From the NCBI GenBank assembly GCA_043822925.1, contig JBDRBF010000049.1, positions 1-14,169 on the forward strand: a stretch of DNA of 14,169 nucleotides, written 5' to 3'. Each line of letters starts with the position of its first letter. Position 1 is the stretch's first letter. Below the pieces are notes generated by a model. It did not search any database, was not told the origin of the DNA, and worked only from the letters and a program-made list of their open reading frames with translations. Shown here piece by piece: positions 6,305 to 8,134 of the stretch. The stretch is from a bacterium. GTDB taxonomy: Bacteria; Babelota; Babeliae; Babelales; RVW-14. The position numbers and the translations under genes are program-made.

Positions 6305-8134
6305 ATGGATATACGAAGTTTAACTGGTTTTGATATAAAGAATTTTAAGCATGAGCATATTCGGAATTTTTCGATTGTCGCTCATATAGATCACGGTAAG
6401 TCGACGCTTGCTGACCGTATGCTTGAGGTAAGCAAAACGATTTCTTCTCGTGAGCACCAAGCTCAATTTTTGGATAAGTTGCAAGTAGAGCAAGAACGTG
6501 GAATAACGGTAAAAGCTCAAACCGCGTCGTTGTTTTATGAATATAAAGGTACGGTATATTTACTTAATTTAATTGATACACCAGGTCATGTTGATTTTAA
6601 TTATGAAGTTTCACGTTCTTTGGCTGCTTGCCAGGGGGCGTTATTGTTGGTTGATGCGGTGCAGGGAGTGCAAGCTCAGACGCTTGCTAACTTTTATTTA
6701 GCCTACGATCTGGATCTAACAATTATTCCTGCTATTAACAAAATTGATATGCAAGCTGCAGATATTAATCGAGTCTCTGGTGAAATGCATAAGGCTTTTG
6801 ATATCGCGAAAGACGAGATCTTACATATATCAGCAAAAAATGGCATAGGCATAGATGATGTTTTTGCCGCAATCATAGAAAAAATTCCGGCCCCTACAGG
6901 TGACGAACAAAAACCAGTTAAAGCATTGTTGTTTGATTCTTGGTTCGACGAGTATCGCGGTGTTGTTTGTTTGATTGAAGTAATTGATAATCAAATCAAA
7001 AAAGGTGACTATATTACGGCAGCGTATAGCGGTCGTGAGTATGAAGTGCTTGATATTGGTCTTATGTACCCAGATATGTTTTCGACGGGCGCGCTTTATA
7101 CTGGGCAAGTTGGATATATAATTTGTGGTATGAAAACGGTTAAAGAAGCGCGAGTTGGTGATACGTTTTTTAGTATAAAAACGCCAATCGAGCCGCTTCC
7201 TGGTTTTAAACCTGCTAAATCAATGGTGTTCGCAGGGATTTATCCTGTTGAAGCAACAGAATTTGATGAAGTGCGCGATGCGATAGAAAAATTAACGCTT
7301 AATGATCCAAGTGTGCATGTTGAGAAAGAGAGTTCTACTGCGCTTGGTCTTGGGTTTAGGTGTGGGTTTTTAGGTTTGTTGCATATGGATGTGTTTAAGC
7401 AACGTTTAGAACAAGAGTATGATGCAAATATTATTGTTACGTCACCGACAGTATCGTACAAAGTAATTTATACTGATGGGCAAGAAGAAATTATTGATAA
7501 TCCATCGAAATTAGAAGATACGGTTAAAATAGAAGAAATTCATGAACCATTAATAAAAGCGACGATTGTGTTACCCAGAGAATATTTGGGAAGTATCTTG
7601 AATTTGTGTCAGGAGCGACGAGGTGAACAGCTTGACATGAGTTATTTGGATGAAAATAGAATAGTTGTGCATTATAAGATGCCGCTAAACGAAATTGTGA
7701 CTGACTTTTACGATAAACTAAAATCGTTAAGTTCCGGGTATGCGAGTTTTGATTATGAAAGTATGGGTTATGAGCCATCTGATTTAGTTAAAATGAATAT
7801 TTTGCTTAATGGTAAAGCAGTAGATGCTCTTTCGCTTATTGTGCATAGAGATAAAGCTTTTTCTATTGGTAGTCAGTTGACGAAAAAATTAAAGACCGTT
7901 ATTCCTCGCCAAATGTTTGAGGTTGCTATACAAGCGGCTATTGGGGCTAAAGTTATCGCCCGTGAAACAGTATCTGCTATGCGTAAAAACGTTATAGCAA
8001 AATGTTACGGTGGCGATATTACCAGAAAGCGTAAGCTGCTTGAGAAGCAGAAAAAAGGTAAGAAAAAGATGAAGCAGGTTGGTAATGTTGAAGTGCCACA
8101 AGAGGCCTTTTTAACGATTTTAAAGAACGAATAG
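6305..8134 (+). CDS. lepA: Elongation factor 4 (LepA/GUF1 translational GTPase)
   Basis: [20 protein letters not shown] (G1), ERGITVK (G2), DTPGHVDF (G3), NKID (G4), [12 protein letters not shown], and LepA C-terminal [18 protein letters not shown]. Confidence 0.98.
   Translation: [609 protein letters not shown]

What the first reader, a model, noticed from the sequence alone, without database searches (positions are those of the whole stretch)
6305..8134. LepA looks like eukaryotic mitochondrial GUF1 rather than typical bacterial EF4
Seen: [82 protein letters not shown], and an N-terminal extension ([13 protein letters not shown]). From my recollection of the family, typical bacterial LepA reads LDSMDLERERGITIK, ACEG, VEAQT, GEVG and LHMEIIQERLEREY, whereas mitochondrial GUF1 of plants and animals reads [31 protein letters not shown], GQVGY and LHM(D/E)VFxQRLEQEY. 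The match to the GUF1 pattern runs along the whole protein. The gene is intron-free and embedded in a bacterial operon. Inference: eukaryote(host)-to-bacterium replacement of a core translation factor, or a bacterial clade related to the source of GUF1.
Basis: partly seen in the sequence, partly recalled or inferred. Interest (0 to 1): 0.8.

Follow-up and report, generated by a model that had tools for sequence, protein, structure and literature searches.

The report
Dependentiae LepA is sister to mitochondrial GUF1
The only LepA (EF4) translation factor of this protist-parasitic bacterium, and of its whole phylum, is the closest bacterial relative of the mitochondrial GUF1 of eukaryotes, which points to one very old gene transfer between the two lineages.

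Summary
ORF 6305-8134 (+) is an intact five-domain EF4/LepA (TIGR01393, 894 bits). It is the only LepA in a 1.5-Mb Dependentiae (Babeliales) genome, and the same type is present in 61 of 61 genomes sampled from the phylum.

- **Nearest relatives.** Its nearest named relatives in 1.84 billion cluster representatives are eukaryotic mitochondrial GUF1 (crab GUF1: 57% identity).
- **Reciprocal test.** All 12 named GUF1 queries hit Dependentiae first. None of 192 alphaproteobacterial matches listed exceeded 51% identity.
- **Profile test.** A profile built from eukaryotic GUF1 alone retrieves Dependentiae LepA at scores equal to plant and fungal GUF1.
- **Tree.** ML under LG+C20 PMSF (60 rows, 594 columns) gives {Dependentiae + GUF1} 100/100.
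- **AU test.** GUF1 + Alphaproteobacteria without Dependentiae is rejected (p 2.5e-77).
- **Shared characters.** Eight shared columns, mostly derived relative to TypA, and a shared N-terminal motif back the clade.
- **Control.** EF-G and EF-Tu of the same genome are ordinary bacterial, so the signal is gene-specific.
- **Weaker result.** Dayhoff-6 recoding keeps the clade but only at 86/70.

The direction of transfer is not resolved. PMSF trees put Dependentiae outside a weakly supported eukaryote clade, and nesting within eukaryotes is not rejected (p 0.20). I lean slightly towards a Dependentiae-like donor of GUF1 before LECA. Host-to-parasite replacement is nearly as likely.

The parts
6305..8134 (+). 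lepA: complete EF4/LepA gene, 609 codons plus stop, of the GUF1-like type
   Evidence: Open frame. TIGR01393 lepA scores 894.3 bits against a cut-off of 533.9. Pfam finds GTP_EFTU, GTP_EFTU_D2, EFG_III, EFG_C and LepA_C. It is the only LepA_C match in the genome.
6305..6355 (+). N-terminal extension (residues 1-17) ahead of the IRNFSI start of the G domain. It is too short for a mitochondrial presequence.
   Evidence: Dependentiae carry ..IDLKNF(T/K)P(D/E)KIRNF and GUF1 carry ..FP(P/x)E(R/K)IRNF. Most other bacterial LepA start 2-8 residues before IRNF; columns 16-17 are filled in 100% of Dependentiae, about 90% of the GUF1 clade and 7-25% of other bacteria.
6356..6889 (+). GTPase (G) domain, residues 18-195. 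It holds [9 protein letters not shown], DTPGH and NKID, and the diagnostic residues L59, V61, V69, S75 and Q110.
   Evidence: Pfam GTP_EFTU covers residues 18-195, E 2.4e-52. Sequence. Column counts.
7106..7108 (+). Codon of Q268 (GQVGY), one of the residues shared with GUF1. Others are V337 (7313-7315), F364 (7394-7396) and Q366 (7400-7402).
   Evidence: TypA outgroup sequences carry D/N, L, L and E at these columns, like other bacteria or at least unlike the shared state.
7805..8125 (+). LepA C-terminal domain (residues 501-607), the hallmark of the EF4 family
   Evidence: Pfam LepA_C covers 501-607, E 4.4e-50. The genome search places it at 7805-8125.
4167..5873 (+). argS (arginyl-tRNA synthetase), upstream neighbour. 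It is part of the argS-(crcB)-lepA-merR arrangement kept in the window's part of the phylum.
   Evidence: Pfam. tblastn found argS beside lepA in 9 of 29 Dependentiae loci (families f1, f7, f11, f12), with flanks of only 1.5 kb.
5845..6276 (+). crcB-like fluoride channel gene immediately upstream
   Evidence: Pfam CRCB, E 4e-17. Found beside lepA in only 1 of 29 loci.
8155..8610 (+). MerR-family regulator gene immediately downstream
   Evidence: Pfam MerR_1, E 1.1e-18. Found beside lepA in 9 of 29 loci.

Best explanation
**What it is.** The gene encodes the cell's one working EF4/LepA, a ribosome-dependent GTPase. The family is assigned roles in back-translocation, 30S maturation and initiation; this comes from family knowledge and was not tested here.

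**What is unusual.** Its ancestry. The LepA of the whole phylum Dependentiae and the mitochondrial GUF1 of eukaryotes descend from one common ancestor, to the exclusion of all other sampled bacterial LepA, Alphaproteobacteria included. That requires one ancient transfer between the Dependentiae stem lineage and the eukaryote stem or earliest eukaryotes.

**Preferred direction (inferred, not shown).** Dependentiae inherited the gene vertically. A Dependentiae-like intracellular bacterium donated it to the proto-eukaryote before LECA. There it gained a targeting presequence and took over from the alphaproteobacterial lepA as the mitochondrial factor.

**Shown here:** single copy, phylum-wide presence, intact domains, the sister relation, shared derived residues and an N-terminal motif, and gene-specificity.

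**Inferred:** that a transfer happened, its timing near LECA, and its direction.

**My odds:** the clade is real, about 0.88. Dependentiae-like lineage to eukaryote, about 0.45. Eukaryote to Dependentiae, about 0.38.
For: **The sister relation**
- Exhaustive search of 1.84 billion representatives: the best hit is crab GUF1 (57% identity, 735 bits). Green-alga and fungal GUF1 also fall among the top ten.
- 14 of the 48 members of the clade carry a source name, and all 14 are eukaryotes. A 58%-identical relative of an unnamed 599-aa member lies on a contig with Vps4, ERGIC and LITAF genes.
- Reciprocal blastp: in 12 of 12 named GUF1 queries the ten best prokaryotic hits are all Dependentiae. For crab GUF1 the Dependentiae minimum is 667 bits, against a maximum of 614 for any other bacterium.
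- The plastid-type control goes to cyanobacteria.
- Crab GUF1 against 201 alphaproteobacterial genomes: 192 matches, listed identities 46-51%, best 632 bits.
- A profile built from eukaryotic GUF1 only: most of the 120 best hits are Dependentiae LepA at 1017-1044 bits. Of the 120, 4 carry eukaryote names (3 plants, 1 fungus), at 1017-1019 bits.
- Trees: 100 SH-aLRT with LG+G4 on 116 rows; 100/100 with careful LG+C20 PMSF on 60 rows, stem 0.33; 100 with a TypA outgroup, root among other bacteria.
- AU test rejects {GUF1 + Alphaproteobacteria} (delta lnL 159, p 2.5e-77).
- Shared columns number 8, against 0 and 1 for the converse classes. The shared state differs from TypA at 61, 69, 110, 268, 337, 364 and 366.
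- Gene-specific signal: the genome's own EF-G scores 928 bits to Thermus EF-G and 590 to mitochondrial EF-G1. Its EF-Tu scores 610-668 to bacterial EF-Tu and 505-511 to mitochondrial EF-Tu.

**The preferred direction**
- All three PMSF trees keep eukaryotes together outside Dependentiae (82, 86/69, 88).
- With eukaryotes removed, Dependentiae join the group of Proteobacteria, Acidobacteriota, Myxococcota and Bdellovibrionota at SH-aLRT 95.
- With Dependentiae removed, GUF1 does not join Alphaproteobacteria.
- This direction needs one transfer instead of two.
- A passage of PMC11976288 names Dependentiae among potential donors of LDH to LECA.
Against: - Dayhoff-6 recoding lowers support for the clade to 85.7/70. 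Most shared residues are conservative changes (I/V, L/V, M/L, E/Q).
- No shared insertion or deletion was found inside the protein.
- Against the preferred direction: the eukaryote-only clade is weakly supported (86/69).
- FastTree, LG+G4 and the recoded tree nest Dependentiae inside eukaryotes.
- The AU test does not reject Dependentiae with opisthokont-like rows (p 0.20).
- The AU test also does not reject {GUF1 + Dependentiae + Alphaproteobacteria} (p 0.115). An alphaproteobacterial origin followed by transfer to the parasite therefore stays open.
- Dependentiae are obligate associates of eukaryotes, which makes uptake of host genes plausible.
- 12 of the 23 rows treated as eukaryotic in the main tree are unnamed.
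- Named Amoebozoa, jakobids and other deep lineages are missing from the sample.
Confidence: 0.45

Rival explanations
1. Host-to-parasite replacement. GUF1 arose in eukaryotes from the alphaproteobacterial endosymbiont's lepA and diverged on the stem to LECA. A copy without its presequence then passed from a stem or early eukaryote to the ancestor of Dependentiae. There it displaced the native lepA, and it has served the bacterial ribosome ever since.
For: - The same robust clade fits this reading.
- The AU test does not reject {GUF1 + Dependentiae + Alphaproteobacteria} (p 0.115).
- The AU test does not reject Dependentiae beside opisthokont-like GUF1 (p 0.20).
- FastTree, LG+G4 and Dayhoff-6 trees nest Dependentiae within eukaryotes.
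- No native second lepA is left in 61 of 61 genomes.
- The N-terminal extension resembles the mature N-terminus of GUF1.
- Passages of PMC4342817 infer that LepA was present in the mitochondrial ancestor.
- From general knowledge: the phylum lives inside eukaryotes.
Against: - The better-fitting PMSF trees place Dependentiae outside all eukaryotes. The donor would then have to be a pre-LECA or unsampled basal eukaryote.
- Nesting under simple models is what long-branch attraction of fast eukaryote rows to the bacterial outgroup would produce.
- This reading needs two transfers plus a displacement.
- GUF1 alone does not join Alphaproteobacteria. Holding the whole clade with them costs 19.8 lnL.
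- From general knowledge: transfers of core translation factors from eukaryotes to bacteria are rare.
Confidence: 0.38
2. No transfer. Dependentiae LepA is vertically inherited, GUF1 is alphaproteobacterial, and the two only look alike. The cause would be convergence, shared retention of ancestral states, or a tree-building artefact.
For: - Support drops to 85.7/70 after Dayhoff-6 recoding.
- The shared residues are conservative replacements, and there is no shared internal indel.
- The Aquifex LepA in the PDB scores 725 bits to the window protein, not far below crab GUF1 at 735.
- IQ-TREE flags several eukaryote rows for deviant composition.
Against: - Support is 100/100 under a site-heterogeneous model, and Dependentiae branches are short.
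- The AU test gives p 2.5e-77 against GUF1 + Alphaproteobacteria.
- The TypA outgroup shows the shared states to be derived at 6-7 columns, and it puts the root elsewhere. Shared ancestral states therefore do not explain the similarity.
- Reciprocal best hits hold for 12 of 12 GUF1 queries from animals, fungi, a green alga, Rhizaria, euglenids and an apicomplexan.
- The eukaryote-only profile ranks Dependentiae level with true GUF1.
- EF-G and EF-Tu of the same genome show no such pull.
- I-to-V and L-to-V changes run against the AT bias of a 38% GC genome.
Confidence: 0.1
3. The gene is not bacterial at all: eukaryotic DNA was mis-binned or mis-assembled into a bacterial genome.
For: JGI's automatic naming of the 120 listed close homologs 'translation factor GUF1, mitochondrial'.
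Against: - The gene lies inside a 14-kb contig of bacterial genes with even GC of 0.35-0.41 and a steady positive GC skew.
- There are no introns and no presequence.
- Homologs at 64-78% identity are present in 61 of 61 genomes of the phylum, several of them single-contig.
Confidence: 0.01

Closest known systems
Bacterial elongation factor 4 (LepA/EF4; TIGR01393; structures 3CB4 of E. coli, 2YWE of Aquifex, 4W2E of Thermus)
   Same: It has the same five-domain architecture with the LepA C-terminal domain and intact G motifs. It scores 894 bits to the equivalog model. phmmer gives 680-725 bits to the solved EF4 structures. The Atlas model aligns to bacterial EF4 clusters at TM 0.96-0.98. It is a single chromosomal gene in a bacterial gene row.
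   Different: It carries derived residues (L59, V61, V69, S75, Q110, Q268, V337, F364, Q366) that 90% or more of the other sampled bacterial LepA lack. It also has a roughly 14-residue N-terminal extension. It branches away from all other bacterial phyla sampled.
Mitochondrial translation factor GUF1 / mtEF4 / mLepA of eukaryotes
   Same: It is the closest relative by sequence (up to 57% identity), by profile score and by phylogeny. It shares the diagnostic residues and the FxP(E/D)(K/R)IRNF motif before the G domain.
   Different: It is encoded in a bacterial genome. It has no targeting presequence: 17 residues precede IRNF, against about 40-200 in most GUF1 rows. It evolves about half as fast as eukaryotic GUF1 (end-to-node paths of about 0.45 against 0.7-1.3). 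It presumably works on a bacterial 70S ribosome, not a mitoribosome.
Plastid LepA (cLepA) of Archaeplastida
   Same: It is another organellar EF4 of eukaryotes.
   Different: The one example sampled is Cyanidioschyzon P0128, which UniProt labels 'GUF1 homolog, mitochondrial'. It groups with cyanobacteria (97/88), and its best hits are cyanobacterial. It is unrelated to the Dependentiae/GUF1 clade.
Mitochondrial EF-G1/EF-G2, derived from 'spd' EF-G types rather than alphaproteobacterial EF-G (Atkinson 2015, PMC4342817; Table 1 and passages seen)
   Same: It is a precedent for mitochondrial translation GTPases whose nearest bacterial relatives are not Alphaproteobacteria.
   Different: It is a different paralogue and a different bacterial group. 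The same paper lists LepA among the factors it infers for the mitochondrial ancestor. In the passages I saw it does not discuss Dependentiae, which were barely sampled in 2015.

Membership tests
EF4 / LepA (TIGR01393) | Full-length match to the equivalog model above its curated cut-off | tested here: met
   894.3 bits against a cut-off of 533.9, covering residues 18-608
EF4 / LepA (TIGR01393) | Domain order G, II, III, V (EFG_C) and the family-specific LepA C-terminal domain; no domain IV and no G' insert | tested here: met
   Pfam finds GTP_EFTU 18-195, D2 219-288, EFG_III 305-378, EFG_C 412-498 and LepA_C 501-607
EF4 / LepA (TIGR01393) | Intact GTP-binding motifs (P-loop, DxxG, NKxD) | tested here: met
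   [9 protein letters not shown], DTPGH and NKID are read directly in the translation
EF4 / LepA (TIGR01393) | Ribosome-dependent GTPase activity and action on the ribosome | not testable with these tools
   Needs biochemistry
Mitochondrial GUF1 (mLepA) | Branches within or next to the eukaryotic GUF1 clade, apart from other bacterial LepA | tested here: met
   {7 Dependentiae + 23 GUF1-clade rows} at 100/100. 100 SH-aLRT. 85.7/70 after recoding.
Mitochondrial GUF1 (mLepA) | GUF1-type residues at the diagnostic columns | tested here: met
   8 of 8 columns. Q110.
Mitochondrial GUF1 (mLepA) | N-terminal mitochondrial targeting presequence | tested here: not met
   Only 17 residues precede IRNF. 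Most GUF1 rows have 40-200. No targeting predictor was available.
Mitochondrial GUF1 (mLepA) | Nuclear gene of a eukaryote, acting in mitochondria | tested here: not met
   The gene sits in a bacterial gene row on a contig of a Dependentiae genome

The most novel reading that the evidence does not exclude
The mitochondrial translation factor GUF1 of all eukaryotes did not come from the alphaproteobacterial endosymbiont. It came from a Dependentiae-like intracellular bacterium that already lived with the proto-eukaryote before LECA. The window's gene is then a slowly evolving living representative of the donor lineage. Dependentiae-type parasitism is then as old as eukaryotes and left a core gene in the mitochondrial translation system.
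Probability: 0.45. Interest if true: 0.85.

Novelty: new variant of a known kind. Interest (0 to 1): 0.72.

Why it matters
LepA/EF4 is one of the most conserved bacterial proteins, and GUF1 is treated as a standard inheritance from the mitochondrial ancestor. This analysis finds a specific, phylum-wide sister relation between GUF1 and the LepA of obligate eukaryote-associated bacteria. One of two things must then be true:

- a core mitochondrial translation factor has a non-alphaproteobacterial, parasite-related origin before LECA, or
- a whole bacterial phylum has run its ribosomes for more than a billion years on a factor taken from its hosts.

Either case adds a datable link between Dependentiae and early eukaryotes. 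It bears on 'pre-mitochondrial symbiosis' ideas.

It also gives a slowly evolving bacterial stand-in for ancestral GUF1 that could be studied on bacterial ribosomes.

There is a practical warning too. Automatic annotation labels these bacterial genes 'GUF1, mitochondrial' (7 of the 120 listed hits), which could mislead contamination screens.

Tried and rejected
- **PDB sequence search for a solved GUF1.** Only 5 bacterial EF4 sequences passed E 1e-50, so no eukaryotic comparison came from there.
- **Protein Atlas.** Feature and structure neighbours were all generic EF4 clusters, uninformative about ancestry.
- **Earlier findings of this scan.** None.
- **PMSF tree on 116 rows.** It did not finish in two 300-s runs, so I cut the set to 60 rows chosen by me.
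- **Shared internal indels.** None found.
- **Scan of genome contigs.** The 80 named bacteria are therefore an arbitrary sample, not the global best.
- **Scan of metagenome contigs for P0131.** It also hit the limit and did not return P0131's own contig, only a 58% relative (L127).
- **Last homolog search, on P0155.** P0155 has no close relative, so whether this 596-aa clade member is bacterial or eukaryotic stays open.
- **Rows dropped.** I dropped 16 partial representatives before the first tree. I dropped L120 because it comes from an unpublished genome (G103).
- **Readings considered and rejected.**
  - A recent transfer from an amoeba host. The trait is phylum-wide, composition is even, and the branch point is basal.
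  - Mis-binned eukaryotic DNA, ruled out by context.
  - A genome-wide 'mitochondrion-like' bias, ruled out by the EF-G and EF-Tu controls.
- **Literature.**
  - 'GUF1' with 'Dependentiae' returned 0 papers.
  - 'TM6', 'LepA' and 'mitochondria' returned 1 irrelevant paper.
  - 'Dependentiae' with 'LepA' returned 13 papers, 10 of them listed. I opened the two that looked relevant. One only lists lepA among genes. The other matches 'Lepage' in its references.
  - No paper stating this relation was found in the library searched.
  - Supplementary tables of large LECA-origin surveys (for example PMC11976288, PMC12872463) could contain it, and I could not see them.
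Full report
**1. What is at the coordinates**

- The window is contig C49 of a 1.52-Mb, 86-contig genome that is 92% complete.
- It is a complete EF4/LepA.
  - TIGR01393 scores 894 bits against a cut-off of 534.
  - Pfam finds the G domain, domain II, EFG_III, EFG_C and LepA_C.
  - Solved bacterial EF4 structures score 680-725 bits.
  - The Atlas model aligns to EF4 clusters at TM 0.96-0.98.
- Its neighbours, all on the + strand, are lpxB, ssb, an unassigned 461-aa ORF, argS, crcB, lepA, merR, an M48 peptidase, secD, plsY and an ATP-dependent DNA ligase.
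- GC is even at 0.35-0.41, with positive GC skew throughout.
- The 120 closest homologs listed are 72-81% identical. Where named, they are Babeliales, Dependentiae or TM6. Seven carry JGI's automatic label 'translation factor GUF1, mitochondrial'.

**2. Copy number and spread**

- The genome has one LepA_C match.
- With the window protein as query, 61 of 61 genomes sampled from the phylum have a match. All 60 others fall in the same order as the window's genome.
- Full-length matches are 64-78% identical. In two genomes the gene is in two pieces: G028 on two contigs and G050 on one.
- The next-best matches are paralogues (TypA- and EF-G-like), with about 28-45% identity over partial lengths.
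- The type is therefore phylum-wide, and no second, ordinary lepA was seen.
- argS-lepA-merR adjacency is kept in 9 of 29 loci, all from the window's part of the phylum. Flanks were only 1.5 kb.

**3. Nearest relatives**

- phmmer ran against one representative per 50% cluster of about 15 billion proteins. It found 42,045 hits at E <= 0.001.
  - The best hit is P0121 (57% identity, 735 bits), which is GUF1 of the crab Portunus.
  - Also in the top ten are GUF1 of the green alga Edaphochlamys and of the fungus Kwoniella.
  - The top ten also hold a Cyanidioschyzon protein and several unnamed proteins of about 600 aa at 51-53% identity.
- In a FastTree of 244 rows, the 31 Dependentiae rows sit inside a clade of 48 representatives. 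The 244 rows were 31 Dependentiae, 80 named bacteria minus L032, and 134 representatives, after dropping 16 partial ones.
- Every clade member that could be named (14 of the 48) is a eukaryote:
  - an animal and a tunicate: crab and Ciona;
  - fungi: Sanchytrium, Jaminaea, Kwoniella, Sporobolomyces, Cronartium and Caulochytrium;
  - other lineages: Edaphochlamys, Plasmodiophora, Entosiphon, Chasmostoma and Neospora.
- A 58% relative of the unnamed 599-aa member P0131 lies on a 101-kb contig among Vps4-, LITAF-, ERGIC- and E1-dehydrogenase-type genes. That contig is a compact eukaryote genome.
- P0155 (596 aa, no N-terminal extension) has no close relative, and its source stays unknown.

**4. 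Reciprocal tests**

- I took twelve named mitochondrial-type GUF1 as queries. I ran them against 31 Dependentiae, 25 alphaproteobacterial and 68 other named bacterial LepA.
  - In 12 of 12 queries the ten best hits were all Dependentiae.
  - For crab GUF1 the weakest Dependentiae hit (667 bits) beats the best other bacterium (614 bits).
  - The Cyanidioschyzon protein, used as a control, hit cyanobacteria first.
- Crab GUF1 against 201 evenly drawn alphaproteobacterial genomes, many of 0.5-1.5 Mb: 192 had a match at E <= 1e-100. Listed identities were 46-51%, and the best score was 632 bits. One of these genomes, G103, is unpublished, and nothing rests on it.
- I built a profile from 20 GUF1-clade sequences only and searched it against 5.8 billion proteins.
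  - Only the 7,999 candidates sharing most words were scored.
  - Among the 120 best, most are 605-612-aa proteins. Where named, they are Dependentiae, Babeliales or TM6, at 1017-1044 bits.
  - Four of the 120 carry eukaryote names, at 1017-1019 bits: Primulina (two), Phtheirospermum and Umbelopsis.
  - Dependentiae LepA therefore fit a eukaryote-only GUF1 profile as well as real GUF1 do.

**5. Phylogeny**

- *LG+G4, quick, 116 rows x 594 columns.* The split {13 Dependentiae + 39 GUF1-clade rows | 64 bacteria} has SH-aLRT 100. Dependentiae are weakly nested among eukaryotes.
- *LG+C20+F+G4 by PMSF, careful, 60 rows that I chose.* The rows were 7 Dependentiae, 23 GUF1-clade rows (11 of them named) and 30 bacteria, including 6 Alphaproteobacteria and the plastid-type control.
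  - {Dependentiae + GUF1} is 100/100, with a stem of 0.33.
  - Dependentiae alone are 100/100.
  - Eukaryotes alone are 86/69.
  - The plastid-type protein sits with a cyanobacterium at 97/88.
  - Alphaproteobacteria are 100/100 inside a proteobacterial group at 99/95. The quick PMSF tree agrees.
- *AU tests on the 60-row tree.*
  - {GUF1 + Alphaproteobacteria} without Dependentiae: delta lnL 159.1, p 2.5e-77, rejected.
  - {GUF1 + Dependentiae + Alphaproteobacteria}: delta lnL 19.8, p 0.115, not rejected.
  - {Dependentiae + nine opisthokont-like rows}: delta lnL 7.8, p 0.20, not rejected. I chose this group after seeing the simpler trees.
- *Five TypA sequences as outgroup.* The root falls among other bacteria. 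{Dependentiae + GUF1} stays at 100, and the eukaryote-only clade is at 88.
- *Eukaryotes removed.* Dependentiae (stem 0.56) join Proteobacteria, Acidobacteriota, Myxococcota and Bdellovibrionota at SH-aLRT 95.
- *Dependentiae removed.* GUF1 attaches at an unresolved deep point, not with Alphaproteobacteria.
- *Dayhoff-6 recoding (GTRX+FO+G4).* The joint clade is kept at only 85.7/70, with Dependentiae nested.

**6. Discrete characters**

- Eight columns separate Dependentiae + GUF1 from the bacterial consensus. The two converse classes gave 0 and 1 columns.
- At columns 61, 69, 110, 268, 337 and 366 the TypA outgroup carries the ordinary bacterial state or one close to it. At 364 it carries L, which is neither state. 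Columns 59 and 75 are uninformative.
- The shared states are therefore derived.
- No shared indel lies inside the protein.
- Dependentiae and GUF1 share residues upstream of the point where most bacterial LepA begin. The motif is recognisable: compare Dependentiae L011 ..IDLKNFTPDKIRNF with Ciona ..IDLRQFPPEKIRNF. The window's own copy is more diverged, at [14 protein letters not shown].

**7. Is it gene-specific?**

- EF-G of the same genome scores 928 bits to Thermus EF-G, 867 to E. coli EF-G and 590 to human mitochondrial EF-G1.
- Its EF-Tu scores 610-668 bits to bacterial EF-Tu and 505-511 to mitochondrial EF-Tu.
- The genome is therefore not 'mitochondrion-like' in general. Only lepA shows the signal.

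**8. Interpretation**

- *Shown:* a functional-looking, single-copy, phylum-wide EF4 whose lineage is sister to, or possibly inside, mitochondrial GUF1.
- *Inferred:* one ancient inter-domain transfer. The eukaryote stem above the common node is very short (0.04), and no column sets all GUF1 apart from Dependentiae + bacteria. The event therefore lies close to LECA in sequence terms.
- *Direction is open.*
  - I rank a Dependentiae-like donor first (about 0.45). The site-heterogeneous trees put Dependentiae outside eukaryotes. It needs one transfer, not two. Dependentiae alone take a supported place among bacteria, while GUF1 alone does not go to Alphaproteobacteria. Dependentiae have also been named as possible donors of another LECA gene, LDH (PMC11976288, passage seen).
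  - Host-to-parasite replacement (about 0.38) remains fully viable, given the two non-rejecting AU tests and the lifestyle of the phylum.
  - Artefact is about 0.1, and contamination about 0.01.

**9. Literature**

- Atkinson 2015 (PMC4342817; passages seen) lists mLepA as nearly universal in eukaryotes with mitochondria. It counts LepA among the factors of the mitochondrial ancestor. Dependentiae are not discussed in the passages I saw.
- The Chromulinavorax paper only lists lepA among translation genes (PMC6561590, passage seen).
- Searches for GUF1 with Dependentiae, for TM6 with LepA and mitochondria, and for Dependentiae with LepA found no statement of this relation.

**10. Caveats**

- This is a single gene of 594 columns.
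- Twelve of the 23 'eukaryote' rows in the main tree are unnamed.
- No named Amoebozoa or jakobids were sampled.
- The named bacterial sample is arbitrary, because the scan hit its limit. The representative search, however, was exhaustive.
- I chose the row subsets myself.
- Support weakens under recoding.

Noticed in passing
window 12416-14167 (+), runs off the 3' end: This is an ATP-dependent DNA ligase of the dnl1 type (TIGR00574, 383 bits). That kind is typical of archaea, eukaryotes and viruses. It may be another gene of foreign ancestry in this genome.
   Followed up: no
window 2675-4060 (+): A 461-aa ORF lies between ssb and argS with no Pfam or NCBIfam match at E <= 0.001.
   Followed up: no
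L032 (genome contigs record titled 'uncultured Pseudomonadota bacterium'): Its LepA is 55% identical to crab GUF1 and sits inside Dependentiae family f1 in the trees. The record's taxonomic label is probably wrong.
   Followed up: partly
P0128 / P0285 (Cyanidioschyzon merolae, 773 aa): UniProt names it 'GUF1 homolog, mitochondrial'. It groups with cyanobacteria (97/88), and its best hits are cyanobacterial, so it looks like the plastid-type LepA.
   Followed up: partly
P0155 (596 aa, from a 27-kb contig): This is an orphan member of the GUF1/Dependentiae clade that starts directly at MIRNF with no N-terminal extension. Its best relatives are Dependentiae LepA (50%) and early-diverging fungal GUF1 (48-49%). 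Its source organism is unknown.
   Followed up: partly
L127 (metagenome contig of 101 kb), 1-17770: This is a gene-dense, apparently intron-poor eukaryotic contig (Vps4-like AAA ATPase, LITAF, ERGIC/ERV, E1 dehydrogenase). It carries a 599-aa GUF1 without an obvious presequence.
   Followed up: partly
whole window 1-14169: All ORFs of 140 aa or more with a family match lie on the + strand. GC skew is positive in every 1-kb window (0.08-0.29). This is consistent with a leading-strand gene block.
   Followed up: no
G050:C8:38085-40048 and G028 (contigs C38, C44): In two of the 61 genomes of the phylum, lepA appears in two pieces. In G050 the pieces are adjacent on one contig, which could be a frameshift or an assembly error. 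In G028 the gene is split across two contig ends.
   Followed up: no
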